A stretch of 64,000 nt of DNA. Source: Candidatus Woesearchaeota archaeon. GTDB lineage: Archaea > Nanobdellota > Nanobdellia > Woesearchaeales > GW2011-AR9. Positions within the stretch are counted from its first letter, which is position 1. Each line of letters opens with the position of its first letter. The stretch covers positions 38,420 to 102,419 of the forward strand of contig JABHQW010000002.1 of assembly GCA_018696595.1 (NCBI GenBank), given 5' to 3'. Shown here piece by piece: positions 25,901 through 45,048 of this stretch. The translations under genes were made by a program, and so were the position numbers. The notes beneath the pieces were generated by a model. The model ran no database searches, was not told the DNA's origin, and was given only the letters and a program-made list of their open reading frames with translations.

Positions 25901-28900
25901 GTTTTTAGCAGGGGGTAGTAAGAGTGGCATTATTTCAACAAACATTTCTGCCACTCCTTTTTACACTAATGTTACTAATCCCTATAATTTATCTTTGAAT
26001 GCAGGAGATTCAGAAACTATAACCTGGTGGGTTAATGCCACCGGAGATATTGATGTTACCCACGAGTTTTTTATTTATGCAAACAAAACTTCTGACTTAA
26101 GTATTGGAACTACAACCACAAAATGGAATGTTACTATTAAAGATACCACCTCTCCAACAGTCAATATAATTTATCCTGCTGCTACAACTTATGCTGTTGT
26201 TATTACTGATTTGAATTATACTTATTCTGATGTTAATGACGGTACTAGTTGTTGGTATAGTACTGATAGTGGAGCAACTAATTCCTCTGTCAATAATGTT
26301 GGGATTAATTTCACTGGGTTAAGTAGTCCTGGCGGTGAAAATATTTGGATTGTTTATTGTAATGATAGTTCTGGCAATATTGGTTCTGATACCGTTAATT
26401 TTACCAGTTCCGTTCCAGTGATTGCTTTAAGTTCAGTTTCTCCCAACCAAAATATTAATGTTACTCAGAATGAAACTTTTACTGTTTCAGTGACGGTAAG
26501 TTGTACAAATAATGATTGTGGTGAAGTTAATGTTAGTTTAGATCCTGTGGCTAATACGCAATATAATTTTACCACTTGTGGCACTTCAGGAAAAGATGGC
26601 CCTAATCAATCTCAATGTGATACAAATTATACTGGGACAAACCTTAATGGGCTAGTGACCGTAAATGGAGGGATTCAAAACTGGACAGTACCTTCCACAG
26701 GAACCTATACAATTGAAACTTATGGTGCTTCAGGGGGAGATGGTTCGCTTTCAGAACCAGGATATGGAGCAAGAATGAAGGGTGATTTTGAATTAACTGC
26801 GGGAACAGTTTTATCAATTATTGTCGGGCAAAAAGGAAGTGTGGGTTCTGGCGAAGCAGGAGGCGGTGGCGGTGGAACTTATGTTTGGGATTCCGTGTTA
26901 AATGATCCATTAATTATAGCCGGTGGTGGCGGTGGTACAGGGGATCAGTCACAGGCCGGAGGTAATGACGATGGGAAGAATGCCTCTAATGAAACAAGTG
27001 GTACTGCGGATGGTTCTGGAGGAGGGGCCGGTGGTACTAATGGAACAGGAGGATCTTCTGCAGGTTCTGGGGGCGCAGGTGCAGGATGGTTAACTGATGG
27101 TGCTGATGGTGCTGCTAGTACTGGTGGTCATACCCCTTCAAATGGAGGAATGGGCGGCGACAAAGTTACTGATGGTGGATTTGGTGGTGGTGGTGCTGAC
27201 GGTGATGCTTCTACTGGTTCTGATTCAGAAGGTGGCGGTGGTGGCGGCGGATATTCCGGCGGTGGAGCATCTGGTAGTTCTTCGGACGCAGGTGGTGGCG
27301 GCGGCGGTTCACTTAATAATGGAACTAACCAAAATAATACGATTAGGGCTGATTTAGGTGATGGTCTTGTTACTATTACATCTTTGACTGCAACAAAATC
27401 TGGATTAGTTTCGATGGTGGTGGATACTACTCCATTCTGGACTTCAACAACTAATCCTTACAATGTTTCGTTGAATGAAGGAGAGTCTTCATCTATCTCT
27501 TGGACTGTTAATGCGACAGGAGATCTGAACACAACCCATGATTTCTTTATTTATGCTAACATGACTTCTGATCAATCAATCAATGATGCTACTGCTCATT
27601 GGAATGTTACAATTTCTAACACCACTACTCAACTTGCTCCGACAATAACAATAATTTATCCTACGACTAATAGTTTTACCAGTAACACAGAGTTTGGAAT
27701 TAATTATACTGCAACAAGTACCACTTTAGATTCTTGTTGGTATGGTTACAATGGAGCTAATACTTCATTAGCAAGTTGTGCTAATATTTCAGCTTTAACT
27801 TGGAGTGAGAGTGCACATACTGTTACAATTTATGCGAATGATACAACAGGAAATGTTGGTAGTAGTTCTGTAACTTTTACAATTGATACTATAACTCCCT
27901 TAATCTCTATAGCATATCCAAGCAATAATACAAATAGTACTAACAATGCTTTGAATGTAAACTATACTTACACTGAAACAAATTTGGGAAGTTGTTGGTA
28001 TAGTAATGATACCATGACTAGCAATACAACTTTAGCTAGCTGTGCTAATATAAGTATAACTTGGACTGACGGTCAGCATAACGTAACTGTTTGGGTAAAT
28101 GATTCGGCAGCAAACTTAAATAAAAGTAGCGTGGCCTTTACAATTGATACTACTGTTCCAAATGTTACACTTGAAACACCAGCAGCAAATTATATTGATA
28201 ATAGTGTTGGTAATGTTAATTTAGTGTTTAATTGTTCTGTTATTGATTTAATCAATTTAGCTAATGTTAGTTTGTATATCACAAATAATCTGAATACTAG
28301 TTTTGTTTTAAATCAGACCACTTCATTATCAGGGGTAACTGGTTCTGCTAACTGGACTTTACCTTTGGTTAATGGGAATTATACTTGGAACTGTTTTGTA
28401 GAAGATTTTGTAGGTAATAGTAATTGGTCAATCAATAAAACAATTCTTATCAATTCAACCCCAGATACAGACAATGACGGGATTGAAGATACTACTGATC
28501 CTTTACTTTACAACGAAACAAACGTGACTCAATCAGGAATAACCAGATTAAACATTACTGTTGGCGGTAATAGAACTAATGAAACTTATACTGGGAAACA
28601 AGAAATATTATTTTATGACCAAAATACGTTAATGATTAATTTTAGTCATAATTTTTCATCAAAAAATTTAGATTTAAGTAATGTTACAATTATTAAAGAT
28701 ACTAATTCTATCATTGTAAATCTTTCAGGACAATTGCAAGGGAATAAAACTTTGTATATTACAGATAATAGTTTTGTTACCTTATGTGTTAAAGATGCAG
28801 AAGTAAGTTCGATTTCTGAAGTCAGTTCTGGGTGCGATGGGGATAATGAAACTGATTTTACTTCTTGCTTGGGGGGAAGTCTTAGTGCAAGTGGAATTAA

Positions 28901-30164
28901 TTGTACTGATTTAGGAACAACGATAAAAATTGATAATTTGCAATACTCTGCAATTAAAGGAACTGTTGCTACTCCTGCCACTACATCTTCGTCTAGTGGA
29001 GGAGGAGGAGGAAGTGGCGGCGGCGGGGCTGGAATTATTAAAAAAGTATTAGAACTCATTAAAGAACCTGAATGTCAGTCCGATGCTGAATGTAGTCCAG
29101 ATAAAACTTGTTATCACAATCAGTGTGTTAAGTTGTTTGACGTAAAAGTTCTTGACGTTGATTCTCCTATTGGGGAAGATGGGTTATTGGGATTTACTTA
29201 TTTCATTAAAGGTATGGCGGATATTAATAGTGATGTGATTATTAATTTTTGGCTGGAGAAAGATAATCAGACTGTTAGTTCTGGTCAAGATGTGGTTTAT
29301 TTAGGTTCATTTGAAGAAAAAACAGAACAAACAAAAATATTTATTCCTCAAAATTTAATCTCTGGCGCATATGATTTTTATGTTCAAGTTAGTTTTGAAA
29401 ACTATCAGGCATTGTCTCATCGAACAATATTCGTTGAAGAGAAAGACGGTGGTAAAATGTCCGTTGAATTAATTGAATCAGAATTAAGAAAACCAGCAAA
29501 TCTTTATTCTTTTCTCATTGGTACTTTAATTATTACATTGTTAATTCTAATAATTATTCATCGGATTATTCTTCTTCCTAAATCTAAAGCTAAGAAGGAA
29601 GTTATGAGGGTGTTTGAATTAAGAAAACAGAGAAGGAAAAAGAGAAAAGTAAGGAAACATCTAAAGAAGAATCAAGCGAAGGAGAAAAGACAAAAAGAGA
29701 AGAATAAAGTAGCAGAAAATATTGTTAAGAAAAAAGAAGATGAAGGGGTAGTGGAAATTGAATTAGAAACGAAGGCAGATGAGAAATTACGGGAAACAAA
29801 ACCGGAAATCAAACCAGAGATAAAAATAGGACTCCCTTTAAAAGATTTAATTTCAAGTAAAAATGAAGTTCAGAAATCTAATGAAAAAGATAAAATAATA
29901 ACTGATGAGGAAATAATAGAAAAAAATATTGATATATTAGAAAAGTATGGTTTTAGTGCGAACAAAACAAAATTAATGCCAGTAAAAGAAAAAGTTGCAA
30001 AACAAGAACCAGTAAAAATAACAAGAGAACAAACAACAAATAAAACAATAGACAGAACAATAGAAAACAACATTAAAGCTTTGGAAGCACATGGTTTTAA
30101 AGTTGTGGGGATAATTAAAGAAAAGAAGAAGCCTAAGAACTCTGTTACTATTTCTTCTTCTTAA
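19926..30164 (+). CDS. Giant (about 3,400 aa) membrane-anchored surface protein/adhesin
   Basis: N-terminal hydrophobic helix; PQQ-like propeller (WRMQGRDLQRT, VYAGSWDGNLYQLNA); LamG (FDFDGVND, WHHVAMT, IDEVRIW); Ig-like repeats; two Gly-rich domains; DTDNDG motif; C-terminal TM and Lys-rich tail; dense N-x-T/S sequons. Confidence 0.9.
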   Translation: MKKNIIAGIVLLFIVVVLALSISQTETAITGAVIGIHQENFTVDENVTITIPDSEKTILDFNETIIENVTEKLPLGTNETIFVNETIELPIDEPEEIPGSGEESTENEITGGITVDLPIENISDEIVELPIEEPLIINETIEGPTVNKTFETNKKVGEINTTNSLGKLNAITPLDLGSQNLVLTSGGNTQSSDAQNTAEWRMQGRDLQRTAYYPGSTPVNISTETQITKTGLSLSSAQAAVAGGFMYIGDNARLYKVNAFNVSQEIDRSGSLSTLYITGPTVWGDFVYVTNGGTYYQINTSNLSQTLATFSVGSQSWANPIIYDGLIYFASTSTDKLYKNNASNISHSIASYSMTNCDSNIAIDNNFMYIACGNVVSQLNMSNLSQTYASYNVGHVNNRGGITIGGGFAYVGEETNDKVWQLNASNVSQLIATYSAGGDVEAAVAYTSDYVYAGSWDGNLYQLNASNVSQLVASLNTGTVYYTPVVSNNHVFVTAGSGTTYQLNASNIAQIITTESTGGNFNSPTIANGIVYAHSGSTMYQYGSGAPIVTLNSPADNYINQTQIASITFNCSASSGVGLANMSLHLTNSSNQNLTSNQTTIINGTSNSTTWSVTLSNGTYSWNCLSYDINGLEGWGVQRSLTIGDSYVPTFTYTSPTPTDATAQSQTNVKINISIEEANLKELKYNWNGTNHTIYNDSLVLMFNFDNLSALNENHTYVFDVSGNNNNGTSVNEAGSFSSGKYGGAFDFDGVNDQVITPSIFGIGTTSFTISSWVNLDSISEGGAFVKIGGTSPNQGFAIGVGGTTFDDTGNDLILLYEGIRWIDTNDAIGTGWHHVAMTVDSSGYPSAFIDGNLTYSDTTGTGAAPQQDITYVGGYTGSGAENRHADVTIDEVRIWGRSLNAQEIYEQYASNLRKIDLDSWEFYVNQSKNSTAVLTDSAYTYSVYSNDVYNQAASSTQQTITIDTVIPTFVNINNVSIEHKFALGNNINATDTVALSCFTVNDTTNFKINCSGYLENNTIVDVARYDLLITINDTAGNTNQQTMFVNITPDVTLPTFTTIANQTVEYGASLGYDIEASDNNQFDCFVVNDTTRFKVNCSGYLENNTVLSINRYWLNLTINDSSNNVNYDTMWVNVSDTISPTISIVYPTNGTNTTNTLLNVNYTVSDLNTLSCWYSNDTMSVNTTLVSCANITSVVWGEGQHNITVWVNDTYNNKNSSGITFTVDLSAPTFTAIANQSFLSKNSLAYDVDATDVVGVSCFTVNDTTNFQINCSGYLQNNTALSVGTYWLNITVNDTFNFNNSALMYVEVNTTPTIGLTLVSPMGNINVTQNKSFSVSATVSCSNADCGEVNVSLDPATDRTLRTCSGVWGASCVGSDPTTGDYSYDSCAAGSYYSNGFWVDEVHVDATTVAIGDTINITCDYDCYSSSSLNDIAIMYYNGTWNKIWRQDSACTDGNYSQAVVISGAVGVQKARCSIGYNLYPNDATDDVCFDTTYSDNDDVNFTVVASGKSGLVSMNTSATPFWTSVTNPYNLTLNVGESSTITWTVNATGDTNVTHEFFVYVNQTADKTISNITAKWNVTIVNFTVSAQAPSVSIVYPVASTNYNTDVTLMNYTVTTDPAWQTLNQCWYSTDSGVTNSSKVAGGINFTGLTSVADSNTWTVYCDDNNSLVGTGSVTFQRIPVINLTLVYPTQNINVSQNEFFNVTTIVSCSNVNCGEINVTLDPEVGTYYNFTTCGASGVNGPTQANCTANYTGTTLAGLVTINTTGYQEFLVPTTGTYLIGAYGASGGTQPQNTPVSEGAFISGNVSLTAGTKLIIVVGQVGASSAISDNEAGAGGGTFVTSGNNYTISSPLIVAGGGSGAGSDSNGGNAYILTDGIGSGCTLGGACTNQNDGAGFYFNNSVAAGAKSFRNGATGGTTLSGSPSFGNGGFGGGGGGTNEDGSGGGGFTGGIGADSVVATRGGASFINTTLVNLSSNTTTGYSGDGKVFIQFLAGGSKSGIISTNISATPFYTNVTNPYNLSLNAGDSETITWWVNATGDIDVTHEFFIYANKTSDLSIGTTTTKWNVTIKDTTSPTVNIIYPAATTYAVVITDLNYTYSDVNDGTSCWYSTDSGATNSSVNNVGINFTGLSSPGGENIWIVYCNDSSGNIGSDTVNFTSSVPVIALSSVSPNQNINVTQNETFTVSVTVSCTNNDCGEVNVSLDPVANTQYNFTTCGTSGKDGPNQSQCDTNYTGTNLNGLVTVNGGIQNWTVPSTGTYTIETYGASGGDGSLSEPGYGARMKGDFELTAGTVLSIIVGQKGSVGSGEAGGGGGGTYVWDSVLNDPLIIAGGGGGTGDQSQAGGNDDGKNASNETSGTADGSGGGAGGTNGTGGSSAGSGGAGAGWLTDGADGAASTGGHTPSNGGMGGDKVTDGGFGGGGADGDASTGSDSEGGGGGGGYSGGGASGSSSDAGGGGGGSLNNGTNQNNTIRADLGDGLVTITSLTATKSGLVSMVVDTTPFWTSTTNPYNVSLNEGESSSISWTVNATGDLNTTHDFFIYANMTSDQSINDATAHWNVTISNTTTQLAPTITIIYPTTNSFTSNTEFGINYTATSTTLDSCWYGYNGANTSLASCANISALTWSESAHTVTIYANDTTGNVGSSSVTFTIDTITPLISIAYPSNNTNSTNNALNVNYTYTETNLGSCWYSNDTMTSNTTLASCANISITWTDGQHNVTVWVNDSAANLNKSSVAFTIDTTVPNVTLETPAANYIDNSVGNVNLVFNCSVIDLINLANVSLYITNNLNTSFVLNQTTSLSGVTGSANWTLPLVNGNYTWNCFVEDFVGNSNWSINKTILINSTPDTDNDGIEDTTDPLLYNETNVTQSGITRLNITVGGNRTNETYTGKQEILFYDQNTLMINFSHNFSSKNLDLSNVTIIKDTNSIIVNLSGQLQGNKTLYITDNSFVTLCVKDAEVSSISEVSSGCDGDNETDFTSCLGGSLSASGINCTDLGTTIKIDNLQYSAIKGTVATPATTSSSSGGGGGSGGGGAGIIKKVLELIKEPECQSDAECSPDKTCYHNQCVKLFDVKVLDVDSPIGEDGLLGFTYFIKGMADINSDVIINFWLEKDNQTVSSGQDVVYLGSFEEKTEQTKIFIPQNLISGAYDFYVQVSFENYQALSHRTIFVEEKDGGKMSVELIESELRKPANLYSFLIGTLIITLLILIIIHRIILLPKSKAKKEVMRVFELRKQRRKKRKVRKHLKKNQAKEKRQKEKNKVAENIVKKKEDEGVVEIELETKADEKLRETKPEIKPEIKIGLPLKDLISSKNEVQKSNEKDKIITDEEIIEKNIDILEKYGFSANKTKLMPVKEKVAKQEPVKITREQTTNKTIDRTIENNIKALEAHGFKVVGIIKEKKKPKNSVTISSS

Positions 30165-32760: not shown

Positions 32761-33120
32761 ATGGCTGAGAAACGAGCAGTATTAGGATTAATTGAGAAAA
32801 TAGTAGTCTTTGGCCCAGATAATAATGAAGAAAAAGTTATCGCTAGAATTGATTCTGGAGCTACTGCATCTTCAATCGACTTCAAATTATCTGCAAAACT
32901 GGGTCTAGGGCCAATTACAAGAACAAAAATCGTTAAATCTGCTTCTGGTGTTAAAAGAAGACCAATTATCATTGTTAAAGTTAGAGTTGGAAAGAAGGAA
33001 ATTGAAGCCGAATTTACTTTAGCAGATCGGGCACATATGACTTATCCTGTTTTAATTGGTCAAAATATTCTTCAGGAAGGGAATTTCTTAATTGACCCGA
33101 ATAAAGGTGGTAAAAAATGA
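32761..33120 (+). CDS. RimK-associated retropepsin-like protease (RimB / ATP-dependent Zn-protease family)
   Basis: ARIDSGATASSID, EFTLADRAHMTYPVLIGQNIL; overlaps the rimK start. Confidence 0.88.
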   Translation: MAEKRAVLGLIEKIVVFGPDNNEEKVIARIDSGATASSIDFKLSAKLGLGPITRTKIVKSASGVKRRPIIIVKVRVGKKEIEAEFTLADRAHMTYPVLIGQNILQEGNFLIDPNKGGKK

Positions 33121-34208
33121 AAGCTGCTGTAATCTCTTTAGGTAGTACAAGTTCTCAAATGGTGGCTGAATCCATGAAAAAATATTTCAAAAAAGTTGAC
33201 ATGATCCAATTAAAAGAAATTGAAGTTAGCATGGGGAAAGACGGCGGAATTCTTTATCAAGGCGAGCCTATGAAGAATTACGATTGTATTTATGTTAAAG
33301 GTAGTTTTCGTTACGCTAACTTATTGGCATCAATTGCTAACTTACTTGAAGGAAAAGTCCCTTACATGCCTATTGCAGGAAGTGCATTCACTATTGTTCA
33401 TAATAAATTATTAACTCATCTGGCTTTACAACAACATAATATTCCTATGCCTAAAACTTATGTTTCTTCTACAGTTGAAGCTGCTAAGGAATTACTTGAC
33501 AAAGTTAATTATCCAATTGTGATGAAGTTTCCTGAAGGAACACAAGGCAAGGGTGTGATGTTTGCAGATTCTAAAAGTTCTGCCGCTTCTTTGTTAGATG
33601 CATTAGTGGCTTTAAACCAACCGTTCATTATTCAAGAATATATTGAAACTGGTGGTTGTGATGTAAGGGCTTTAGTTGTTGGTGGCAAAGTAGTGGCCGC
33701 AATGAAACGTAAAGCACAGAAGGAAGAGAAACGTTCAAACATTCATGCTGGTGGCACTGGTGAATCTGTTGAATTAACACGGGAATTAATTAATATTGCA
33801 TTGGATACAGCTAAAGCATTGAAAGTAGACGTTTGTGGTGTAGATATTTTAGAGAGTCCTCTTGGTCCATTAGTTATTGAAGCGAACATTTCTCCAGGAT
33901 TGCAAGGGTTAAGTAAAGCTGTTGATGTAGATGTTCCTAACGAAATTGCTAAACATTTATTTTTAGAAACTGAAGCAATAGTGAAAAAGAAAAAACGTGT
34001 TGAAGAAAAGAGAGCAATGGAAGAAATGAAGTTGGATGATTTGAGTGAAAGGATGCCACAGCAAGAAATTATTACTAATTTACAATTTCGTGGAGAAAGG
34101 ATTTTACTTCCAGAAGTTGTTACTAAATTATGTAAGTTCAATGACCGTAAAGAGTATACTTTGAAAGTTAAGAAAGGTAAGTTAGAGTTGGAAGAGTTCA
34201 AGATTTAG
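33117..34208 (+). CDS. rimK: RimK-family ATP-grasp amino-acid ligase with C-terminal AbrB-like extension
   Basis: NKLLT..L..H.IPMPKT, YPIVMKFPEGTQGKGV, IIQEYI, DVRALVVGG, RSNIHAGG, GVDILE, IEANISPG. Confidence 0.92.
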   Translation: MKAAVISLGSTSSQMVAESMKKYFKKVDMIQLKEIEVSMGKDGGILYQGEPMKNYDCIYVKGSFRYANLLASIANLLEGKVPYMPIAGSAFTIVHNKLLTHLALQQHNIPMPKTYVSSTVEAAKELLDKVNYPIVMKFPEGTQGKGVMFADSKSSAASLLDALVALNQPFIIQEYIETGGCDVRALVVGGKVVAAMKRKAQKEEKRSNIHAGGTGESVELTRELINIALDTAKALKVDVCGVDILESPLGPLVIEANISPGLQGLSKAVDVDVPNEIAKHLFLETEAIVKKKKRVEEKRAMEEMKLDDLSERMPQQEIITNLQFRGERILLPEVVTKLCKFNDRKEYTLKVKKGKLELEEFKI

Positions 34209-34274: not shown

Positions 34275-36155
34275 TTGGCTCAACTGAAAAAAGTATTAAG
34301 TTATCCTGCGATTCTTCTAATTACAATTAACTCGATTATGGGTACGGGTATTTTCTTTTTGCCAGCAGTTGGTGCAGGAGCAGCAGGACCAGCTTCACTT
34401 TTATCCTGGATAATCCTTTCTATAATCTCGATCTATATCGCCATGTGTTTTGGAGAACTTGCTTCTATGTTTCCAAAGTCTGGAGGGATTTATGAATATT
34501 GTAAACAGGCTTACGGAAGATTCTTTTCATTCATTATTGGTTGGATGACTGTTGTTGCTGGAAACGTTACGATTGCCATGCTGGTGGTTGGGGCCGTACA
34601 ATATTTGCTTCCATTAGGGGCCATTTGGATGAAAATAGCCATTTCATTATTATTCATTTTTGCTTTCAATTACATCGCTTTCAAAGGGATGAAAACTAGT
34701 GCAGTAATGTTAGTAGTTTTTGCTTTCATTACTTTAGCAGCAATTCTAGGTTTAACAATTCCAGGATTATTCAAATTTAATGTTGGAAACTTTAAACCAT
34801 TCTTTATTTTCCCAGCATCTTCGTTAGTGCTAGCGATATTTCTAATAGCAGAAACTTTTTTTGGTTGGGAGACTGCTACGTTCTTAGCAGAAGAAACTAA
34901 AGATGGCCAGAGAGTTATGCCTAAAGCATTAATTTGGGGAACAGTAATTATTGCCATAATTTGTATTCTATTTGTAGTTACTTCTTTAGGGGTTATGCCT
35001 TGGAACATTTTTGGAAGTTCCGCTACCCCATTAACAGATTTAGGAATTTTACATTATGGTGGATTGGGTGGAGATATTTTCACGATTCTTGTTTACTTAG
35101 CAATTATTGGTTCTGTGGCAGGGTGGGTTGTTTCTGCCCCAAGATTATTATTAGCAATGGCGAAAGATAAATTGTTCTTAGACCATTTTGCTAAAATTCA
35201 TAAAAAGAATTTAACACCTCATCGAGCTATTCTTTTTCAAACTATTCTGACAACAATTCTGGTTATTGTTGGTGCGGGTTCTTATACTACAATGTTACAT
35301 TTACTAGTGCCCATAGTTTTGGTGGCATATTCATTTGTTCTGGTTAGTGTAGTTGTGTTAAGATATAAAAAACCAGACCAGAAAAGATTTTATACTGCTC
35401 CTTTTGGTAAAGTTGGTCCAATAATTATTGCGTTATTTATGTTATTTTTAATTTATATGTGGATGACTCATACTCCTGGTGCATTAGATATTGTTAAAGT
35501 GGCTCTGTCACTAATTTTCTTGGGTGTTCCTTTATATTTCCTTGTAGAGATGTATCATGATGCTAAAGCCATTTATGGAGTTAACGAAAAGTTATCTTAC
35601 ATCTTGGTTTTGTTTGAAAACATTTTCTTTCCAATCTCAATAAAGAAAAGAATTCTTTTGATGCTTGGTGATGTAAAGAATAAAAACATCTTGGAATTTG
35701 GTTGTTCGGTTGGAACTTTAACTAGAAAACTTTCTCAGAAAGTTTTACCTAAAGGAAGAGTTTATGCTTTTGATTTTATTGAGCATAATGTTAGGGTTGC
35801 TTTATCTCATATGAAGAGACACGGACATGTTAACTTTTACCACCATAAACATTTAGATCATTTTAAAACAACTATCAAATTGCCGAAGATGGATGCTTTA
35901 GTTTCTACTGGTTCTTTGTCTTATATGCAAAAGCCACAAAATGTTTTGAACCATTTAGGTAAGCATGTCAAGAAAGGTGGCCGAGTTGTATTCTTAGATT
36001 ACGATCAGTTCTTTTTCTTTATTCCTAATGTGCCCTGGATTAGTGATGAGAAAAAACTTAAAAAGATGTTTAAGATTGCTAGTTTTGAAGTTGAAGTTAT
36101 TAAGAAACGCGGATTGTTATGGAGACATATCTTTATTCATGGTAAGAAAGTTTAA
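34275..36155 (+). CDS. APC-family amino-acid permease fused to a C-terminal class I SAM-methyltransferase-like domain
   Basis: INSIMGTGIF, ELASMFPKSGGIY, FFGWETATFLAEE, PRLLLAMAKD; then ILEFGCSVG, VYAFD, MDALVS, VKKGG. Confidence 0.9.
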   Translation: MAQLKKVLSYPAILLITINSIMGTGIFFLPAVGAGAAGPASLLSWIILSIISIYIAMCFGELASMFPKSGGIYEYCKQAYGRFFSFIIGWMTVVAGNVTIAMLVVGAVQYLLPLGAIWMKIAISLLFIFAFNYIAFKGMKTSAVMLVVFAFITLAAILGLTIPGLFKFNVGNFKPFFIFPASSLVLAIFLIAETFFGWETATFLAEETKDGQRVMPKALIWGTVIIAIICILFVVTSLGVMPWNIFGSSATPLTDLGILHYGGLGGDIFTILVYLAIIGSVAGWVVSAPRLLLAMAKDKLFLDHFAKIHKKNLTPHRAILFQTILTTILVIVGAGSYTTMLHLLVPIVLVAYSFVLVSVVVLRYKKPDQKRFYTAPFGKVGPIIIALFMLFLIYMWMTHTPGALDIVKVALSLIFLGVPLYFLVEMYHDAKAIYGVNEKLSYILVLFENIFFPISIKKRILLMLGDVKNKNILEFGCSVGTLTRKLSQKVLPKGRVYAFDFIEHNVRVALSHMKRHGHVNFYHHKHLDHFKTTIKLPKMDALVSTGSLSYMQKPQNVLNHLGKHVKKGGRVVFLDYDQFFFFIPNVPWISDEKKLKKMFKIASFEVEVIKKRGLLWRHIFIHGKKV

Positions 36156-36198: not shown

Positions 36199-38532
36199 GT
36201 GGTGAGAAACAAATTAGACAAAATAATACAACTATTAATCCCTCCCTCATTAGTTCTCCTTCTTGTTGTTACTATCATTGAACTTTTTTATGGTGTTGGT
36301 AAATCTATGTCAATATTTATTGATATTTTTGATGTCTATGTGATTATTATTTTTGCTATTGATTTGTATTACCGATGGTTTGAAACTCCACGCTTTTGGC
36401 CTTATATTAAAAAACACATTCTTGATATTATTGCTACTATCCCTTTCAACTTAATTTTTTTAGGAATTGAAGCACTCGCTTTAATAAGAGCGTTAAGGGG
36501 TGTTCGTATTATTGCTAGAATTGTTAAGTTTGCACGATTTGCACGTTATGGTCGTTTATTAAGATTATTAAGATTTGGTGCAAGAGCACCGAGATTTATT
36601 AGGGTAAGAAAGCAAGTAAAAAAAGGTAAAATTCGTAAAGTTCAACCGCACGAAAAAGAGTTGAAGAAAACATTGAGTTTTAAAGTAATCCTCCTAATCA
36701 CAATTAACTCCATTATGGGTACTGGTATTTGGTTCCTTACTTCTGCAGGAGCTAAACATGCTGGTCCCGCTTCTTTAGTTTCTTGGGGTGTATTGTCTTT
36801 AATTTCTGTTTATATTGCGATGTGTTTTGGAGAATTAGTTTCTATGTTTCCAAAAGCAGGTGGCGTTTATGAGTTTGCTAAACAAGCTTACGGTAGATTT
36901 TGGAGTTTCGTTATTGGTTGGACCACATCTATTGCTGGAAGTGTAACTATTGCTATGCTTCTTTTAGGTGCGTTACAATATCTTATTCCTCTTAAATATT
37001 CTTTTACCTATATCCCTATTGCAATTTTTTTAATTATTGCTTTCAGTTATGTAGCATTTAGGGGGATGCAAACTTCAACCGTTGTTTTGGTGACCTTTGC
37101 AATCATTACTTTAACTGCGGTTGTTTCAATTATCATTCCTGGATTTATTAATTTTAAACCGGGCAATCTTGATCCTTTCTTTGTTTTCCCAGCAATGAAT
37201 GTCTTGTTAGCAATATTCTTTATTGCGGAAACTTTCTTTGGTTGGGAAAGTGCTATTTTTCTTTCTGCTGAAACAAAAAATCCTTCTAAAATAATGCCTA
37301 AGGCGTTAATTTACGGAACTCTTATTATTGCGGTTTTGTCTTTCTTTTTAGCTCTTACAGCTATGGGTACTATTCCCTGGGCAGAATTTTCAGAATCTGT
37401 AGCACCACTAAAAGATTTAGGAAGCGTCCATTTTGGAAATATTGGGGGGATAATCTTTGCAATATTGATTTTTATTTCTGTAATTGGTGCTACTGCAGGT
37501 TGGATTGTAACTGCACCAAGATTATTAATGTCTATTGCTGAAGATAAATTATTTTTCACTCAATTTGCAAAAATTCATCCCAAACATAAAAGCCCTTACG
37601 TTTCAATAATTTTTCAAGTTTTAGTTGTTTCAACTTTAGTTATTGTTGGGGCTGGTTCGTATGAAACTTTATTGCATATGCTAATTCCTTTAATTTTGGT
37701 TGTCTATTCTGCTGTCTTGTTAAGTCTCGTTATTTTACGTTTTAAAAGACCAGAATTAAAACGACCTTACAAAGTTATTTTTGGAAAAGTTGGCCCTCTT
37801 ATCACGATGCTGTTTATGGTTTTTCTATTAATAATGTTTATTAAAGAAACTCATAGTGCTTTTGACATCTTGAGGATTTCTGCTGGTTTAGTTGCTTTTG
37901 GTATCCCTGCTTATTTCGCAATTGAATTATTTTATGATAAGAAATATGTTACTCTTAGAAGAAATTTGATGGCTAAGTTATCACATCATTATAATAAATT
38001 TCCTTTAACTAAAATGACATTTAATAAAATAATTTCTTTAGTTGGACCATTTAATAAGAAATCTTCTCTTATGGTTTATAATTCTCCAATGGGGGCTTTT
38101 ACTCAAAAAATTGTTAAATCTAAAATTCCTTTCCGTAAAATAATTATTGCCAATCAGTCAAAAGAAGAAATTAAAGTTTTCAAAGAAAAAATTTCTTCTG
38201 AAAATAGAAAACATATTGGTGTGCATTTGTTGAGAAAATTAAGTGTCCCTGTAAATGTGGGGAAAGTAAATGCTTTTGTTTCATTTAATAGTTTAGGACA
38301 TGTTAAAGACGTAGCTGGGTTTGTTCACAATGTAAAGAAAGTTCTTAATAAAAAAGGCAAGTTCTGTTTTTATGTTAAAAACAATTTTCTGAATATGACT
38401 CCTAATGCTTTATTAGTTGAAGATAAGAAAAAGATGCTGGCTTTGTTTAAGAAAGAAAAATTAGTGGTAACTTATAACAAAAAAAGAAGATTGTTTAAGA
38501 CAGAAATATTTATTTGTGGTAAAAAAGTTTAA
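36199..38532 (+). CDS. Voltage-sensor domain + APC permease + degenerate methyltransferase-like domain (triple fusion)
   Basis: S2 IIFAIDLYYRW, S3 HILDIIATIPF, S4 RALRGVRIIARIVKFARFARYGRLLRLLR; APC motifs INSIMGTGIW, PKAGGVY, FFGWESAIFLSAE; MTase-fold tail. Confidence 0.88.
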   Translation: MVRNKLDKIIQLLIPPSLVLLLVVTIIELFYGVGKSMSIFIDIFDVYVIIIFAIDLYYRWFETPRFWPYIKKHILDIIATIPFNLIFLGIEALALIRALRGVRIIARIVKFARFARYGRLLRLLRFGARAPRFIRVRKQVKKGKIRKVQPHEKELKKTLSFKVILLITINSIMGTGIWFLTSAGAKHAGPASLVSWGVLSLISVYIAMCFGELVSMFPKAGGVYEFAKQAYGRFWSFVIGWTTSIAGSVTIAMLLLGALQYLIPLKYSFTYIPIAIFLIIAFSYVAFRGMQTSTVVLVTFAIITLTAVVSIIIPGFINFKPGNLDPFFVFPAMNVLLAIFFIAETFFGWESAIFLSAETKNPSKIMPKALIYGTLIIAVLSFFLALTAMGTIPWAEFSESVAPLKDLGSVHFGNIGGIIFAILIFISVIGATAGWIVTAPRLLMSIAEDKLFFTQFAKIHPKHKSPYVSIIFQVLVVSTLVIVGAGSYETLLHMLIPLILVVYSAVLLSLVILRFKRPELKRPYKVIFGKVGPLITMLFMVFLLIMFIKETHSAFDILRISAGLVAFGIPAYFAIELFYDKKYVTLRRNLMAKLSHHYNKFPLTKMTFNKIISLVGPFNKKSSLMVYNSPMGAFTQKIVKSKIPFRKIIIANQSKEEIKVFKEKISSENRKHIGVHLLRKLSVPVNVGKVNAFVSFNSLGHVKDVAGFVHNVKKVLNKKGKFCFYVKNNFLNMTPNALLVEDKKKMLALFKKEKLVVTYNKKRRLFKTEIFICGKKV

Positions 38533-38964: not shown

Positions 38965-39543
38965 CTACTTTTTATTTTTGTTTTTCTTCAAATTTCTTTT
39001 CTCTAGAACTTTTGTATGTTTCTTCTGATACTCTGGTTTGTGTCTATGAACATGATGTGTGACTTTTGTAAACAATCTTGATTTGGTAACAATTCTTAAT
39101 GATCGAGCAGCTAATCTAATATACTTAGCAATTTTCTGACTTCTACTTAAGGCAGAGATGCCTTTTCTTGCTTCTAATGACTCATGTAATATTGCTTGAC
39201 TAATGGTGTATTTTCCAGCAGTTGCAGCGACTCGCCAAACTCGACTTACAATAGTAAATACAATCACTAGGGGGACAACTGCGACTATATCTAACCAGTA
39301 ACTTTTGAAAAAGAATTTCCAGGTTTTAGCTTTGATTGCCAAGAAGATCAAATCAATGACAAAGATGACGATGATAAAGTAATCTAATGCCACAATCGGT
39401 GTATGGTAAAGTTCAACAAAATGATGAACTGATTCGTTAAAGTACCCGATGACTTCTAAAACGATAATTATCAGCAAACCCACAATCGCTGCTGGAATTA
39501 ACTTGGCATTCCAATGTTCAACCTTTTCCCAAAAATTATTCAT
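38965..39543 (-). CDS. Stand-alone voltage-sensor-like (S1-S4) membrane protein with no pore domain
   Basis: Likely start MNNFWEK (39543); S2 IIVIFVIDLIF, S3 YWLDIVAVVP, basic KIAKYIRLAARSLRIVTKSR segment, His/Lys-rich tail. Confidence 0.8.
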   Translation of the reverse strand: MNNFWEKVEHWNAKLIPAAIVGLLIIIVLEVIGYFNESVHHFVELYHTPIVALDYFIIVIFVIDLIFLAIKAKTWKFFFKSYWLDIVAVVPLVIVFTIVSRVWRVAATAGKYTISQAILHESLEARKGISALSRSQKIAKYIRLAARSLRIVTKSRLFTKVTHHVHRHKPEYQKKHTKVLEKRNLKKNKNKK

Positions 39544-39636
39544 AGAAGAAAGTAATTTTTTTAGGTATATAAATTTTGTCCTGTGATAACTTTTATAAAT
39601 GATAGAACAATAGTTAACTATGAAAAGAGGCATGAG
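39544..39636. promoter_or_regulatory. Divergent promoter region shared by the VSD-only gene and APC paralog 3
   Basis: TATATAAA at about 39567 and TTTATAAA at about 39592; AAGAGG RBS before the ATG at 39637. Confidence 0.5.
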
Positions 39637-41712
39637 ATGAAACTTAAACAGTTCTGGCAGTATTTAGTTACGGATAGTTCTAAGAAGAAGAAAGTTACAA
39701 CTCTAACTTCTAATAAATCTATTTCTACTAAAACTGTAACTGTAAAAAGGCATCAATCTACCGCAAAAAGACTTCTCTCATCACCGGTTGTACTATTTAT
39801 TTTAATTAACTCTATCTTAGGGAGCTCATTATTTTACCTCCCCAGCCTAGGAGTTGTTTCTTCTGGGGCGGCATCACTTATTGCTTGGATTCTATTATTT
39901 GCTCTTTCAACATTTATGATGCTTTACGTTTCTGAATTAATTACTTTACATCCTACCTCAGGTGGAACTTACGAGTTCTGTAAACGAGCTTACGGAAGAC
40001 AAATCTCTTTTTTTGCTGGCTGGATTATTTGGATTGCTGGAAATTTCGGAATGGCTCTTAATGTAGTGGCGGCTTCTGAATACTTTATCCCAGATACTTA
40101 TTCTTACTACTTCATTTTACGACTAGTTTTTGCAGCAATCTGGATTCTTGTTCTTAACTTTATGGCTTTTAGAGGAATAGATGCGGGAGCAACAATGTTA
40201 GTTGTTTTCGGAATTTTAACTGTGGTTGTAGTGATTGCAATGATCTTACCTTCTTTCATTGACATTCCTACTTTGTTTCAAGGAAGTTTAACCAGCCCAT
40301 TTCAATTAGAAATGATGCAACCTTTCTTCCGTCATACTGGATTAGGAATATTTAGTTTCTTACTTCTCTCGGTTTTCTTAATCGCGGAAGCATTCTTTGG
40401 TTTTGAAACAGTAAGTTATATGGCTAACGAAGTTAAAGATAAAAAGAATTTACCAAAAATAATGATTTCTGCAATGGTCATTTGTGGTGTTATCATGACG
40501 ATTTATCTGTTAAGTTCGTTGGGGACAGTTTCTTATCATGATTATGTTAGTGATGCTCGGCCTTGGGCAGTACAGGCATTAAACAATATGGGCAGTTTAG
40601 GACAGAACTTTGTTGTTTTTGGTATGTACCTAGTAATTATTGGTGCGGCAGCAGCGTGGCCAATTGCTAGTTCAAGATTGATTAGGGCGATGTCTAGCGA
40701 TAAATTGTTTTTGAAACATTTCTCAAAGTTACATCCAAAACACAAATCTCCTTATCGTGCAGTTTATTTTCAAACAATCATAATTTTCTTATTTGCTTGG
40801 TTTATTTTTCGTGGATATATTGTTAAATGGGGTGATCCATATCGGACCATTTACTTAATCTACTTATTACTAAGTTTAATTGTACTATCACTTGTCCTTT
40901 TTGCAGTTCCTATCTTGAGGAAGAAAGAAGCACATTTGAAAAGAACATTTAAGGCGCCATTACCTTGGCTTGGTCCAATATTCTTTGTTGGTCTTTTTGT
41001 TTTCATGATTATTAATTGGATCAGAATTGAAGGTGGTGTAGCAACGTCTGTAATTTTAATGGCAGGGTCATTTGTTGTTTTAGGAATTCCATTTTATTTC
41101 TTAGTGGAAATGTTTTACAATCCTAAGGCTATCATCTCAGTTAATGAAAGGTTATCTTATTTTGTAGTTATTGGAGAAAAATTATTTTTTCCTTTTACTA
41201 TTAGAAACAGATTGATTAAAGACCTAAAAACTTTGCGAGGGAAGTCTGTTTTAGAGTATGGTTGTTCTTTCGGAACACTAACTCGGAAGTTGGCAAAGAA
41301 AGTTACTTCTACTGGAAAAATTTACGCGACAGATTTATCTTTACACAAAGTTAAGATTGCTGATCAAAGAACAAAACGAATCAAGCATGTTTTTGTTCAT
41401 CATCATCCTCATTTGAGTGATTTCAAATTGAAATTGCCTCAGAAGGTTGATAACGTGCTCTCTGTGGGGATGTTATCTTACATGCAGAATCCTTTGAAAG
41501 TATTGTCAAGTTTAGCGAAGCGAGTAAAAAGGGGTGCTGACGTAGTATTCTTGGATTATGATAAATTCTTTTACTTTATTCCTAACGTGAAGTGGATTGA
41601 AGAAGATAAAAAGCTAATTGCTTTATTCAAACGAGCGGGTTACAAAGTCAAAGTAGAAAGAAAACGTGGTTTATTATGGACTTATGTTATTATTAGTGGA
41701 AAAAGAGTTTAA
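39637..41712 (+). CDS. APC-family permease fused to a C-terminal class I SAM-methyltransferase-like domain (paralog 3)
   Basis: INSILGSSLF, PTSGGTYEF, FFGFETVSYMANE, SRLIRAMSSD; VLEYGCSFG, IYATD, VDNVLS, VKRG. Confidence 0.9.
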   Translation: MKLKQFWQYLVTDSSKKKKVTTLTSNKSISTKTVTVKRHQSTAKRLLSSPVVLFILINSILGSSLFYLPSLGVVSSGAASLIAWILLFALSTFMMLYVSELITLHPTSGGTYEFCKRAYGRQISFFAGWIIWIAGNFGMALNVVAASEYFIPDTYSYYFILRLVFAAIWILVLNFMAFRGIDAGATMLVVFGILTVVVVIAMILPSFIDIPTLFQGSLTSPFQLEMMQPFFRHTGLGIFSFLLLSVFLIAEAFFGFETVSYMANEVKDKKNLPKIMISAMVICGVIMTIYLLSSLGTVSYHDYVSDARPWAVQALNNMGSLGQNFVVFGMYLVIIGAAAAWPIASSRLIRAMSSDKLFLKHFSKLHPKHKSPYRAVYFQTIIIFLFAWFIFRGYIVKWGDPYRTIYLIYLLLSLIVLSLVLFAVPILRKKEAHLKRTFKAPLPWLGPIFFVGLFVFMIINWIRIEGGVATSVILMAGSFVVLGIPFYFLVEMFYNPKAIISVNERLSYFVVIGEKLFFPFTIRNRLIKDLKTLRGKSVLEYGCSFGTLTRKLAKKVTSTGKIYATDLSLHKVKIADQRTKRIKHVFVHHHPHLSDFKLKLPQKVDNVLSVGMLSYMQNPLKVLSSLAKRVKRGADVVFLDYDKFFYFIPNVKWIEEDKKLIALFKRAGYKVKVERKRGLLWTYVIISGKRV

Positions 41713-43831: not shown

Positions 43832-43924
43832 GCGGGAGTAGTATAGTGGTTAGTATACGGCGTTGCCAATAGCTTTTCGCTAAGTAAAGACGCTGTGACC
43901 TGGGTTCAAGTCCCAGCTCTCGCA
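43832..43924 (+). tRNA. tRNA-Gly(GCC) with canonical intron 43869-43889
   Basis: GCGGGAG/CTCTCGC, CGGCG-TT-GCC-AA-CGCTG, BHB helix TTGC/GTAA. Confidence 0.95.
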
Positions 43925-44974: not shown

Positions 44975-45048
44975 GGGCCGGTAGCTTAGCTTGGAAGAGC
45001 GCCTGACTTTTAATCAGGCGGTCGAGGGTTCAAATCCCTTCCGGCCCG
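44975..45048 (+). tRNA. tRNA-Lys(UUU), intronless
   Basis: GGGCCGG/CCGGCCC, CCTGA-CT-TTT-AA-TCAGG, GAGGG-TTCAAAT-CCCTT. Confidence 0.97.

What the first reader, a model, noticed from the sequence alone, without database searches (positions are those of the whole stretch)
36199..38532. Voltage-sensor domain fused directly to an APC transporter: a possible voltage-gated secondary carrier
Seen: N-terminal S1-S4 with the S2 F-x-x-D/R pattern (IFAIDLYYR), the S3 D-x-x-A-x-x-P motif and an unusually long S4 with about 10 Arg/Lys at mostly every third position (36481-36570). A basic linker leads straight into APC TM1 (INSIMGTG), with no S5-P-S6 pore or GYG filter. Known: VSDs gate channels, the phosphatase VSP and the sperm Na+/H+ exchanger SLC9C1 (VSD + transporter + cyclic-nucleotide-binding domain). 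I know of no characterised VSD-APC fusion. Inference: a prokaryotic convergent analogue of SLC9C1 using a LeuT-fold carrier and an MTase-fold regulatory domain.
Basis: partly seen in the sequence, partly recalled or inferred. Interest (0 to 1): 0.9.

Follow-up and report, generated by a model that had tools for sequence, protein, structure and literature searches.

The report
Voltage sensor fused to amino-acid transporter
A marine DPANN archaeon encodes one 777-residue membrane protein that joins a channel-type S1-S4 voltage-sensor domain to an amino-acid/polyamine (APC) carrier and a decayed methyltransferase-like tail; this is a conserved natural candidate for a second, independently evolved voltage-controlled transporter, the only recognised one being the sperm Na+/H+ exchanger SLC9C1.

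Summary
ORF 36199-38532 (+) is one uninterrupted 777-aa gene made of three parts:
- an S1-S4 voltage-sensor domain (VSD, residues 1-~135);
- a conserved basic linker, followed by a 12-TM APC permease (159-590);
- a class-I-methyltransferase-like domain with eroded SAM motifs (616-777).

The fusion is not an assembly artefact:
- more than 130 protein clusters of 765-790 aa share the architecture;
- 21 of 301 sampled genomes of the phylum carry it, all in one order;
- contigs from separate seawater runs cross the junction without mismatch.

The N-domain is homologous to real channel VSDs (profile against KvAP E 3.4e-9; hhalign against a 6TM K+ channel 97-98%). It folds as a VSD, and the S2 Phe/Asp, S3 Asp and about 10 S4 Arg/Lys are conserved (dN/dS about 0.04). 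There is no pore domain.

On a tree built without the VSD, the fused proteins form one clade (support 100), so the fusion arose once and was kept.

Voltage dependence itself cannot be tested here. My best reading, at about 0.55, is a voltage-controlled APC carrier in which S4 acts on TM1a through the invariant linker. I found no paper describing it. The scan had already noted this same stretch of this genome (e1-2565870).

The parts
36199..38532 (+). Whole gene: VSD-APC-methyltransferase-like fusion protein, 777 aa (P0001), stop codon included
   Evidence: Single open frame. 132 homologous clusters of the same length and architecture. Contigs of separate runs bridge the domain junction.
36220..36291 (+). 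S1 helix (residues ~8-31), with the near-invariant acidic E28 close to its outer end
   Evidence: AF2 helix 5-31. E28 conserved in 36 of 38 orthologues.
36301..36384 (+). S2 helix (residues ~35-62): D45, F52, D55, R59, spaced 7/3/4 as in Kv1.2 E226/F233/E236/R240 (the Kv1.2 numbering is from my own knowledge)
   Evidence: D45, D55 and R59 invariant; F52 in 37 of 38. Aligned to KvAP and to K+ channel P0150.
36394..36465 (+). S3 helix (residues ~66-89) with D76 and the invariant A79, P82, F83
36466..36504 (+). S3-S4 insert (residues 90-102, contains R97 and R100). It is either a paddle-like hairpin or the outer start of S4; the placement is ambiguous.
   Evidence: 13-residue insert relative to channel P0150 in hhalign. 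Sequence alignment to KvAP instead pairs R97/R100/R103 with KvAP S4 arginines. Lower pLDDT here.
36505..36594 (+). Core S4 (residues ~103-132): Arg/Lys at 103, 107, 110, 113, 116, 119, 122, 125, 129, 132. The indel-tolerant part is 104-113.
   Evidence: Aligned residue for residue to the S4 of a true K+ channel. Positions 116-132 are R/K in 37-38 of 38 orthologues. The wider family consensus is R-x-x-R-x-x-R-x-x-R-x-x-x-R-x-P-R-F.
36595..36672 (+). Conserved basic cytoplasmic linker between S4 and the carrier (residues 133-158), with the invariant P150-H151-E152; proposed coupling element
   Evidence: R135, K141, R146, K147 at 90% or more; P150/H151/E152 invariant. The unfused paralogue starts just after this point.
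36673..37968 (+). APC-superfamily permease domain (residues 159-590), 12 predicted TM helices; TM1 motif N-S-I-M-G-T-G and TM6 motif E-T-F-F-G-W-E-S are invariant
   Evidence: Pfam AA_permease_2 at 152.9 bits against a cut-off of 27. Best PDB matches: BasC 6F2G E 1.4e-29, GkApcT, LAT1. Invariant columns.
37969..38043 (+). Helical connector between the carrier and the C-terminal domain (residues 591-615), poorly conserved
   Evidence: AF2 helices 581-598 and 605-615. Mean pairwise identity 34%.
38044..38529 (+). Class-I methyltransferase-like alpha/beta domain (residues 616-777) with eroded SAM-binding motifs I and II
   Evidence: Methyltransf_11 E 6e-4, 20.8 bits against a cut-off of 21.2. Homologous to the paralogue's intact domain, E 3e-12. 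Motif comparison. AF2 pLDDT about 78-89 with a beta-alpha pattern.

Best explanation
The gene encodes a self-contained, voltage-controlled secondary carrier.

The sensor. The N-terminal S1-S4 domain is a true homologue of channel voltage sensors. It keeps a charge-transfer centre (F52, D55, D76), outer acidic residues (E28, D45) and a long S4 with about 10 Arg/Lys. Because the S4 charges sit in the membrane field, S4 should shift with membrane potential.

The coupling. S4 is not followed by an S4-S5 linker and pore. It continues into a 26-residue, highly conserved basic linker (invariant R132 and P150-H151-E152) that is covalently joined to TM1 of an APC (LeuT-fold) permease. In LeuT-fold carriers the cytoplasmic half of TM1 (TM1a) forms the inner gate; this is established knowledge from LeuT-family structures, not tested here. 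I infer that S4 movement is passed through the linker to TM1a and biases the carrier between locked and transport-competent states. Uptake of an amino-acid- or polyamine-like substrate would then depend on the cell's membrane potential.

A plausible purpose (speculative). A small-genome, auxotrophic DPANN cell would take up substrate when energised and would avoid leaking accumulated substrate backwards through the carrier when the potential collapses.

The C-terminal domain. It is a cytoplasmic methyltransferase-fold module inherited from the widespread DPANN APC-methyltransferase family. In this lineage it has probably lost SAM-dependent catalysis.

Shown here: the architecture, the homology, the fold, the conservation, and the single origin and retention of the fusion. 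Inferred: voltage sensitivity, the coupling route, the polarity and the substrate.
For: 1. The fusion is real and old.
- 132 clusters match residues 1-165 within proteins of 427-1360 aa. Nearly all are 765-790 aa with AA_permease domains, and sources name them Woesearchaeota/Nanoarchaeota.
- 21 of 301 sampled genomes of the phylum have it as one open frame without stops. They lie in six families of one order.
- Contigs from runs X1, X7 and X8 span 36522-36906 with 0 mismatches and no indels.

2. Homology to real voltage sensors.
- Profile A2 against PDB sequences: KvAP 6UWM E 3.4e-9, and all 27 hits are voltage-gated K+/Na+ channel chains.
- hhalign to a 6TM K+ channel with a T-T-V-G-Y-G-D filter: probability 98.3%, E 1.2e-14 over S1-S3; probability 97.3%, E 1.8e-11 with S4 included.

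3. Fold.
- AF2 N-domain model, pLDDT 81.6.
- Foldseek top hits are the KvAP VSD (2KYH, 1ORS; probability 1.00, TM 0.51-0.62), and all top 50 are channel VSDs.
- VIA-align Z is 8-9 with nearly all of the top 30 being VSDs. These include Ci-VSP 4G7V (Z 8.6, rmsd 3.8, 120 aligned) and SpSLC9C1 8PCZ (Z 8.4, rmsd 6.1, 129 aligned).

4. Functional residues are conserved in 38 orthologues down to about 52% VSD identity.
- D45, D55, R59, P82 and F83 are invariant.
- E28, F52 and D76 are at 90% or more.
- R/K at 116, 119, 122, 125, 129, 132 and 135 in 37-38 of 38 orthologues, 37-38 at 97, 100 and 103 if Gln97 is counted.

5. Purifying selection. For G000 against its closest orthologue, VSD dN 0.073, dS about 2, dN/dS about 0.04, compared with 0.045 for the APC domain. 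dS is near saturation, so this is an order of magnitude only.

6. Single origin, then retention. A tree built from the APC plus methyltransferase part only puts all 38 fused proteins on one side of a branch (SH-aLRT 100, stem 0.74 substitutions per site).

7. The carrier looks intact. The TM1 and TM6 substrate-site motifs are invariant.

8. Topology fits. S4 ends in the cytoplasm and APC TM1 starts there; basic residues cluster on the predicted inner loops (sequence).

9. Weak docking signal. Complex prediction of VSD (1-150) against APC (155-600) gave ipSAE 0.47 (runs 0.53/0.47/0.40) against a best control of 0.00, verdict 'weak support'.
- The mark was reached by 58 of 80 solved complexes and 2 of 110 mismatched pairs.
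- At 0.60 or under it was reached by only 7 of those 80 and by both mismatches.
- The runs agree in at least 58% of contacts, and the partner's pLDDT is at least 58.
- My own alignment was used, so these counts hold only roughly.

10. Precedent. In SLC9C1 a very long S4 and an attached intracellular helix restrain the transporter until S4 moves (PMC10620092).
Against: - There is no functional data of any kind, and no RNA evidence.
- Pfam Ion_trans is below its gathering score (19.2 against 25 bits).
- Structural scores are middling for a helical bundle (Foldseek E 5e-3; Z 8-9, and the tool warns that Z under about 13 can be generic for helical bundles).
- The S4 region is the least confident part of both models: pLDDT below 50 in the full-length model and about 65 in the domain model. 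Its exact membrane register is ambiguous.
- The family tolerates indels inside the S4 stretch, from a 12-residue deletion to a 21-residue insertion at 104-113. That is unusual for a rigid force-transmitting helix.
- Close VSD-only relatives (47-55% identity) exist as free genes that are not next to carriers. The module may therefore have an autonomous function.
- VSD-like folds without voltage sensing are known (TMEM266; PMC13095418).
- The docking prediction is only 'weak support'.
Confidence: 0.55

Rival explanations
1. The N-domain is an evolutionary derivative of a voltage sensor that no longer senses voltage. It would serve as a structural, oligomerisation, lipid-sensing or partner-docking module for the carrier, much as S1-S4-like domains do in TRP channels or TMEM266.
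For: Pfam Ion_trans is below its cut-off. Indels are tolerated within the S4 stretch. pLDDT is low at S4. Non-sensing VSD-like proteins are known (PMC13095418).
Against: The residues that matter only for charge translocation are the most conserved ones: F52, D55, D76, D45, E28, and 7-10 R/K at three-residue spacing. dN/dS is about 0.04. S4 aligns register for register with a bona fide K+ channel S4.
Confidence: 0.2
2. The VSD is itself an ion pathway (an Hv1-like or omega-current-like H+/cation pathway). In that case it supplies or dissipates the coupling ion next to the carrier rather than gating it allosterically. The many free-standing VSD-only proteins of this phylum would be the ancestral form of that activity.
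For: About 100 of 301 genomes of the phylum carry VSD-only ORFs of 130-350 aa. The closest ones (P0124, P0125) stand alone, away from carriers. Hv1 shows that a VSD alone can conduct (PMC13095418).
Against: The hydrophobic plug residue F52 and a full ladder of S4 arginines are conserved, and that pattern normally seals the gating pore. The conserved S1 acid (E28) lies near the outer end of S1, not mid-membrane as the Hv1 selectivity Asp does (the Hv1 position is from my own knowledge). Hv channels are reported as not found in archaea (PMC13095418).
Confidence: 0.1
3. The VSD controls the cytoplasmic methyltransferase-fold domain, as in a voltage-sensing phosphatase (a VSD-controlled enzyme). 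Alternatively, the whole protein is a signalling 'transceptor', with transport a secondary function.
For: Deep-branching fused orthologues keep an intact SAM motif I, D-Y-D-C-G-x-G. Ci-VSP is a precedent for VSD-to-enzyme coupling (PMC13095418).
Against: The VSD is joined to the carrier's TM1. It is separated from the C-terminal domain by 12 TM helices. The methyltransferase domain is the least conserved part (42% mean identity against 76% for APC). It has lost motifs I and II in this clade, while the VSD and the carrier motifs stay intact.
Confidence: 0.1
4. The fusion is an artefact: a chimeric assembly, a frameshift that joins two genes, or a decaying pseudogene.
For: None was found.
Against: One open frame without stops in 21 genomes. 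132 clusters from NCBI, JGI, ENA, Logan and Tara sources, on contigs up to 922 kb. Contigs from separate runs cross the junction with no mismatch or indel. Strong purifying selection.
Confidence: 0.01

Closest known systems
SLC9C1 (sperm-specific voltage-gated Na+/H+ exchanger; SpSLC9C1 structure 8PCZ)
   Same: An S1-S4 voltage-sensor domain covalently joined to a secondary transporter with no pore domain. S4 is unusually long and continues into a cytoplasmic element proposed to restrain the transporter. An extra cytoplasmic domain is present. The VSD model aligns to its VSD (Z 8.4, rmsd 6.1, 129 residues; PMC10620092).
   Different: The carrier fold is APC/LeuT-type rather than NhaA/CPA. The VSD is N-terminal and leads directly into TM1, instead of lying C-terminal to the transporter and about 2 nm away from it. 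There is no cyclic-nucleotide-binding domain; a methyltransferase-like fold takes that place. The host is archaeal, not metazoan. The origin is independent. Function is untested.
KvAP-type archaeal/bacterial 6TM voltage-gated K+ channels (KvAP 1ORS/6UWM; metagenomic channel P0150)
   Same: S1-S4 is homologous (E 3.4e-9 to KvAP; hhalign 97-98% to P0150). The S2 F-x-x-D and S3 D-x-x-A-x-x-P signatures are shared. P0150 also has a very long S4 with 11 R/K at every third residue.
   Different: There is no S4-S5 linker, S5, P-loop, filter or S6. S4 is followed instead by a basic linker and a 12-TM carrier. A 13-residue insert lies between S3 and S4.
Unfused APC-methyltransferase permeases of DPANN archaea (for example the neighbours at 34275-36155 and 39583-41712)
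   Same: The same APC core and C-terminal class-I methyltransferase fold. 912 homologues at E <= 1e-20. The fused clade branches from within or beside this family.
   Different: They lack the 155-residue VSD and linker, and they keep intact SAM motifs. 31 positions are diagnostic of the fused clade. The stem leading to the fused clade is long (0.74 substitutions per site).
Characterised APC transporters BasC (6F2G), GkApcT (5OQT), LAT1, AdiC
   Same: 12-TM LeuT-fold permease, E 1e-29 to 1e-17. The TM1 G-x-G and TM6 motifs are conserved.
   Different: No equivalog-level match, so the substrate is unknown. The TM5 lysine of BasC (K154) and GkApcT (K191) aligns to Thr here. None of these carriers has a VSD.
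Ci-VSP / voltage-sensing phosphatases
   Same: A non-channel protein whose VSD drives a covalently attached effector. The VSD model aligns to 4G7V (Z 8.6, rmsd 3.8, 120 residues).
   Different: The effector there is a soluble phosphatase directly after S4. Here it is a membrane carrier.

Membership tests
[quoted passage not shown] | Four-helix transmembrane bundle S1-S4 | tested here: met
   AF2 domain model, pLDDT 81.6, with helices 5-31, 35-62, 66-80/83-100 and 103-139. The top structural matches are VSDs.
[quoted passage not shown] | S4 with Arg/Lys at every third position | tested here: met
   R/K at 103, 107, 110, 113, 116, 119, 122, 125, 129, 132. Conserved in orthologues and aligned to a K+ channel S4.
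[quoted passage not shown] | Charge-transfer centre: S2 aromatic plus acidic residue (F-x-x-E/D), and an S3 Asp | tested here: met
   F52 in 37 of 38, D55 in 38 of 38, D76 in 35 of 38.
[quoted passage not shown] | Significant sequence homology to known VSDs | tested here: met
   Profile against KvAP, E 3.4e-9. hhalign to a true K+ channel, 98.3% / E 1.2e-14.
[quoted passage not shown] | Pfam PF00520 Ion_trans gathering score | tested here: not met
   19.2 bits against a cut-off of 25. The model spans S1-S6 (241 positions) and only positions 15-110 can match, so this row bears on membership of the 6TM channel family rather than on the VSD fold.
[quoted passage not shown] | Gating-charge movement in response to membrane potential | not testable with these tools
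   Needs electrophysiology or voltage-clamp fluorometry.
6TM voltage-gated cation channel | S5-P-loop-S6 pore domain with a selectivity filter after S4 | tested here: not met
   No Ion_trans_2 match. Residues from 159 onward are AA_permease_2. Compare P0150, which has both.
APC superfamily permease (Pfam AA_permease_2 / AA_permease) | Pfam gathering score and full-length coverage | tested here: met
   152.9 bits against a cut-off of 27, profile positions 1-407 of 427.
APC superfamily permease (Pfam AA_permease_2 / AA_permease) | Unwound TM1 G-x-G motif and TM6 motif lining the substrate site | tested here: met
   N170-S-I-M-G-T-G176 and E344-T-F-F-G-W-E-S351 are invariant in 38 orthologues and align to BasC/GkApcT.
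APC superfamily permease (Pfam AA_permease_2 / AA_permease) | Assignment to a substrate-defined subfamily (NCBIfam equivalog) | tested here: not met
   The best match, TIGR00909, scores 177 bits against a cut-off of 556.8. No equivalog cut-off is reached.
Class I SAM-dependent methyltransferase | Rossmann-like fold homologous to methyltransferase domains | tested here: met
   E 3e-12 to the paralogue's domain, which passes five Pfam methyltransferase models. AF2 beta-alpha pattern with pLDDT about 78-89.
Class I SAM-dependent methyltransferase | Motif I (D/E-x-G-x-G-x-G) and the motif II acidic residue for SAM binding; Pfam cut-off | tested here: not met
   V-Y-N-S-P-M-G in place of motif I and N in place of the motif II Asp. 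Methyltransf_11 scores 20.8 against 21.2 bits. Both motifs are intact in deeper-branching fused orthologues.
SLC9C1-type voltage-gated transporter | VSD covalently joined to a secondary transporter without a pore | tested here: met
SLC9C1-type voltage-gated transporter | CPA1/NhaA-fold Na+/H+ exchanger module and a C-terminal CNBD | tested here: not met
   The carrier is APC. No Na_H_Exchanger or cNMP-binding match in Pfam. It is therefore an analogue, not a member.
SLC9C1-type voltage-gated transporter | Transport switched on by a change of membrane potential | not testable with these tools
   Needs flux or SSM electrophysiology under an imposed potential.

The most novel reading that the evidence does not exclude
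This would be the first prokaryotic voltage-gated secondary carrier and the first with a LeuT-fold core. In it, a channel-type S4 acts directly, through a short invariant linker, on TM1a, the inner gate of an APC amino-acid transporter. Voltage gating of carriers would then have evolved at least twice, on unrelated transporter folds. The many free-standing VSD-only proteins of Nanoarchaeota would be the reservoir from which the sensor was recruited.
Probability: 0.5. Interest if true: 0.9.

Novelty: new variant of a known kind. Interest (0 to 1): 0.8.

Why it matters
- Voltage sensors are textbook parts of ion channels. Only one carrier, metazoan SLC9C1, is recognised as VSD-regulated (PMC10620092; PMC13095418).
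- A second, independent and compact (777 aa) example on the best-understood carrier fold would test a general question: can S4 motion gate alternating access, and how?
- Here the coupling route is unusually simple, running from S4 through the linker to TM1a. The family also offers many natural variants, including ones with S4 indels.
- It would show that archaea with tiny genomes use membrane potential to control nutrient uptake.
- It could also provide a small natural scaffold for engineering voltage-controlled transport.

Tried and rejected
- Expression evidence: the look-up of sequencing runs listed no RNA holder, so expression is unaddressed.
- Foldseek gave no PDB match at E <= 0.001 (best 5.3e-3). 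I relied on the consistency of the hit list and on profile homology instead.
- The ESM Atlas feature and shape searches added nothing beyond Ion_trans clusters at lead-level scores (0.80; TM 0.52) and the protein's own cluster.
- The own-genome search with the VSD found only the fused gene at E <= 0.01 and missed the neighbouring VSD-like ORF P0002. Pairwise BLASTP links the two at E 1e-11 and 23% identity.
- Gene fission: I tested whether the nearest VSD-only relatives are split forms sitting next to an APC gene. They are not. P0125 is followed by an AAA_5 gene, and P0124 lies beside a DUF3179 gene on a short contig.
- Conserved operon: none was found. In 12 other genomes none of the window's neighbouring genes (RimK, the RimB-like peptidase, paralogue 1, paralogue 3, ORF116) lies within about 10 kb of the fused gene. 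Only one genome has a P0002-like gene next to it.
- Fused-clade-specific acidic residues on the carrier that might pair with the basic linker: the 31 diagnostic positions show no obvious acidic gain.
- dN/dS: dS is saturated even for the closest pair, and other pairs gave undefined values.
- The full-length AF2 model (pLDDT 69) gives no coordinates or PAE here, so VSD-carrier contacts could not be read from it.
- Five literature searches found no description of a VSD-APC fusion. Subscription journals and TCDB are not covered.
Full report
**What is there.** The window is AT-rich (about 33% G+C). It belongs to a 1.19-Mb, 97%-complete genome whose proteins are named Woesearchaeota/Nanoarchaeota by public sources. 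ORF 36199-38532 (+) is a single 777-codon frame with a GTG start behind AAGAGGT. Orthologues begin at the same position.
- Pfam places AA_permease_2 at residues 159-547 (E 1.6e-44).
- It places a sub-threshold Methyltransf_11 at 646-724.
- Scanned alone, residues 1-160 give only Ion_trans (E 7.5e-4, below cut-off, profile positions 15-110, i.e. the S1-S4 half).

**Is the fusion real?** Yes.
- A search restricted to residues 1-165, but to proteins of 427-1360 aa, returned 132 clusters. Nearly all are 765-790 aa with AA_permease domains. They come from NCBI, JGI, ENA, Logan and Tara assemblies, on contigs up to 922 kb.
- In 301 genomes sampled across the phylum, 21 carry the VSD as part of one open frame of 600-867 aa with no internal stop. 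They lie in six families of one order.
- The DNA occurs in seawater and marine metagenomes of 15 studies.
- Contigs of runs X1, X7 and X8 span the VSD-carrier junction (36522-36906) with zero mismatches and no indels.

**Is the N-domain a voltage sensor?**
- Sequence. phmmer of residues 1-160 against PDB finds voltage-gated channel (Kv/HCN) chains almost exclusively (apart from a few plant ribosome-inactivating proteins at E > 0.6), best KvAP 1ORS at E 9e-4.
- Exhaustive search. Against 1.84 billion representatives it found 152 relatives. Most are 130-230-aa VSD-only proteins. A few are true channels carrying Ion_trans plus Ion_trans_2, and one is an HPP-VSD fusion.
- Profile. A 120-sequence profile raises KvAP to E 3.4e-9.
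- hhalign to a 6TM K+ channel with a T-T-V-G-Y-G-D filter (P0150) gives 98.3%, E 1.2e-14 over S1-S3. With a fused-family profile it gives 97.3%, E 1.8e-11 through S4.
- Structure. The AF2 domain model has pLDDT 81.6. Foldseek's top two hits are the isolated KvAP VSD (probability 1.00, TM 0.51-0.62) and all 50 listed are channel VSDs. An exhaustive VIA-align search gives Z 8-9, with nearly all of the top 30 being VSDs, including Ci-VSP and SpSLC9C1. These Z values are middling for helical bundles; the weight comes from the uniform hit list together with the profile homology.
- Signature residues. D45...F52-x-x-D55-x-x-x-R59 in S2 and D76...P82 in S3. They are invariant or above 90% in 38 orthologues. 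So are E28 in S1 and the R/K ladder at 116-135.
- Selection. dN/dS for the VSD is about 0.04, like the carrier domain (dS is saturated, so this is an order of magnitude).

**Where exactly is S4?** There are two readings.
- Pairwise alignment to KvAP pairs R97/R100/R103 with KvAP S4 arginines.
- Three lines point elsewhere: the profile alignment to P0150, the aligned ranges in the structure search, and the wider-family consensus R-x-x-R-x-x-R-x-x-R-x-x-x-R-x-P-R-F. They place the core S4 at about 103-132 and treat 90-102 as an insert between S3 and S4.

I favour the second reading. Under either, S4 is very long, as it is in P0150, which has 11 charges, and in SLC9C1. Residues 104-113 tolerate indels across the family, and this is the least confident part of the models.

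**The linker and the carrier.** After S4 comes a 26-residue basic segment, with R135, K141, R146 and K147 near-invariant and P150-H151-E152 invariant. The unfused paralogue begins just after this point. The segment therefore belongs to the sensor module and is the obvious coupling element.
- The carrier keeps invariant TM1 and TM6 substrate-site motifs.
- It is closest to BasC, GkApcT and LAT-type transporters.
- It reaches no substrate-defined NCBIfam cut-off.
- The TM5 lysine of BasC and GkApcT aligns to Thr, so the coupling ion is open.
- A two-chain prediction of VSD against carrier passed its controls only weakly: ipSAE 0.47 against a best control of 0.00. The mark was reached by 58 of 80 solved complexes and 2 of 110 mismatched pairs, but at 0.60 or under by only 7 of those 80 and by both mismatches. 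The runs agree in at least 58% of contacts, and the partner's pLDDT is at least 58.

**The C-terminal domain.** It is homologous to the intact methyltransferase domain of the neighbouring paralogue (E 3e-12) and is confidently folded. It has nevertheless lost motif I and the motif II acid in this clade, whereas deep-branching fused orthologues keep D-Y-D-C-G-x-G. It is the fastest-evolving domain (42% mean identity against 76% for the carrier).

**Evolution and context.**
- APC-methyltransferase fusions without a VSD are common in DPANN archaea: 912 proteins at E <= 1e-20, plus Atlas clusters in Woesearchaeota, Aenigmatarchaeota and Nanobdellota.
- On a tree built only from the carrier plus methyltransferase part, all 38 fused proteins form one group (SH-aLRT 100) on a long stem of 0.74. 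This means one fusion event, followed by diversification with the sensor retained.
- The rows were a sample: every third hit of paralogue 1, all 38 rows of A1, and midpoint rooting.
- The local tandem (paralogue 1, fused gene, ORF116, VSD-only gene, paralogue 3) is not conserved. In 12 other genomes the fused gene stands without these neighbours, and one genome has a P0002-like gene downstream. The fused gene is therefore a self-contained unit.

**How it most likely works.** See Best explanation. The architecture, homology, fold, conservation and single origin are shown. Voltage sensitivity, coupling through TM1a, polarity, substrate and physiological purpose are inferred. The rivals are a non-sensing structural module (0.2), an Hv-like ion pathway (0.1), VSD control of the methyltransferase-like domain or a transceptor role (0.1), and an artefact (about 0.01).

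**Comparison and novelty.** The closest functional analogue is SLC9C1, described in 2023 as the only known VSD-regulated transporter (PMC10620092) and still the only one in a 2024 review (PMC13095418). The present protein fails SLC9C1 membership, because it has a different carrier fold, a different domain order and no CNBD, but it shares the design principle. Five full-text searches found no description of it. Public annotations call it merely 'APC family permease'. I rate it a new variant of a known kind. The same stretch of this genome had already been flagged earlier in this scan (e1-2565870).

Noticed in passing
window 38965-39633 (-): A free-standing 222-aa VSD-like ORF (P0002; Ion_trans E 1.4e-4; 23% identity and E 1e-11 to the fused VSD). 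It is transcribed divergently from paralogue 3, and its start overlaps that gene's start by about 50 nt. Its S4-like stretch is split by a polar segment of about 35 residues.
   Followed up: partly
phylum-wide; e.g. G202:C4:77756-78106, G215:C4:1154-1579; proteins P0124, P0125, P0128: About 100 of 301 sampled genomes of the phylum encode small VSD-only proteins (130-350 aa) with no pore or effector. A 2024 review states that VSD-only Hv channels are not found in bacteria or archaea. The function of this widespread family is unknown.
   Followed up: partly
protein P0190 (305 aa): A different non-channel fusion: an HPP-family transmembrane domain (PF04982, E 1.5e-10) followed by the same type of VSD (residues 170-299). 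Several other proteins of 260-310 aa carry the VSD in their C-terminal half, behind an unassigned N-terminal membrane region.
   Followed up: no
protein P0150 (284 aa): A bona fide 6TM K+ channel (T-T-V-G-Y-G-D filter) whose S4 carries 11 Arg/Lys at strict three-residue spacing, with almost no S3-S4 loop. It is the closest true channel to the fused VSD.
   Followed up: partly
window 34275-36155 (+) and 39583-41712 (+): Two VSD-less APC-methyltransferase paralogues with intact SAM motifs flank the fused gene. Paralogue 3 is very divergent (terminal branch 1.61) and has a 70-residue Ser/Thr/Lys-rich N-terminal extension. What an amino-acid permease does with a covalently attached methyltransferase is itself unexplained, although there are 912 such proteins in DPANN.
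   Followed up: partly
window 32761-34208 (+): A RimB/RloA-like retropepsin-type aspartic peptidase (119 aa), translationally coupled (4-nt overlap) to a RimK-type ATP-grasp ligase (363 aa). The pair lies directly upstream of the permease cluster, but this adjacency is not conserved in 12 other genomes.
   Followed up: partly
P0001 residue ~T305 (TM5), window ~37111-37113: The TM5 lysine that substitutes for the Na2 ion in BasC (K154) and GkApcT (K191) aligns to Thr in this marine protein. The carrier may therefore be Na+-coupled or an exchanger rather than H+-coupled through that lysine.
   Followed up: no
window 43832-43924 (+) and 44975-45048 (+): Rfam finds two tRNAs. The first spans 93 nt and so probably contains an intron. 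Earlier notes of the scan report several intron-bearing tRNAs in this stretch.
   Followed up: no
window 19917-30164 (+): A giant ORF of 3415 aa, not examined.
   Followed up: no
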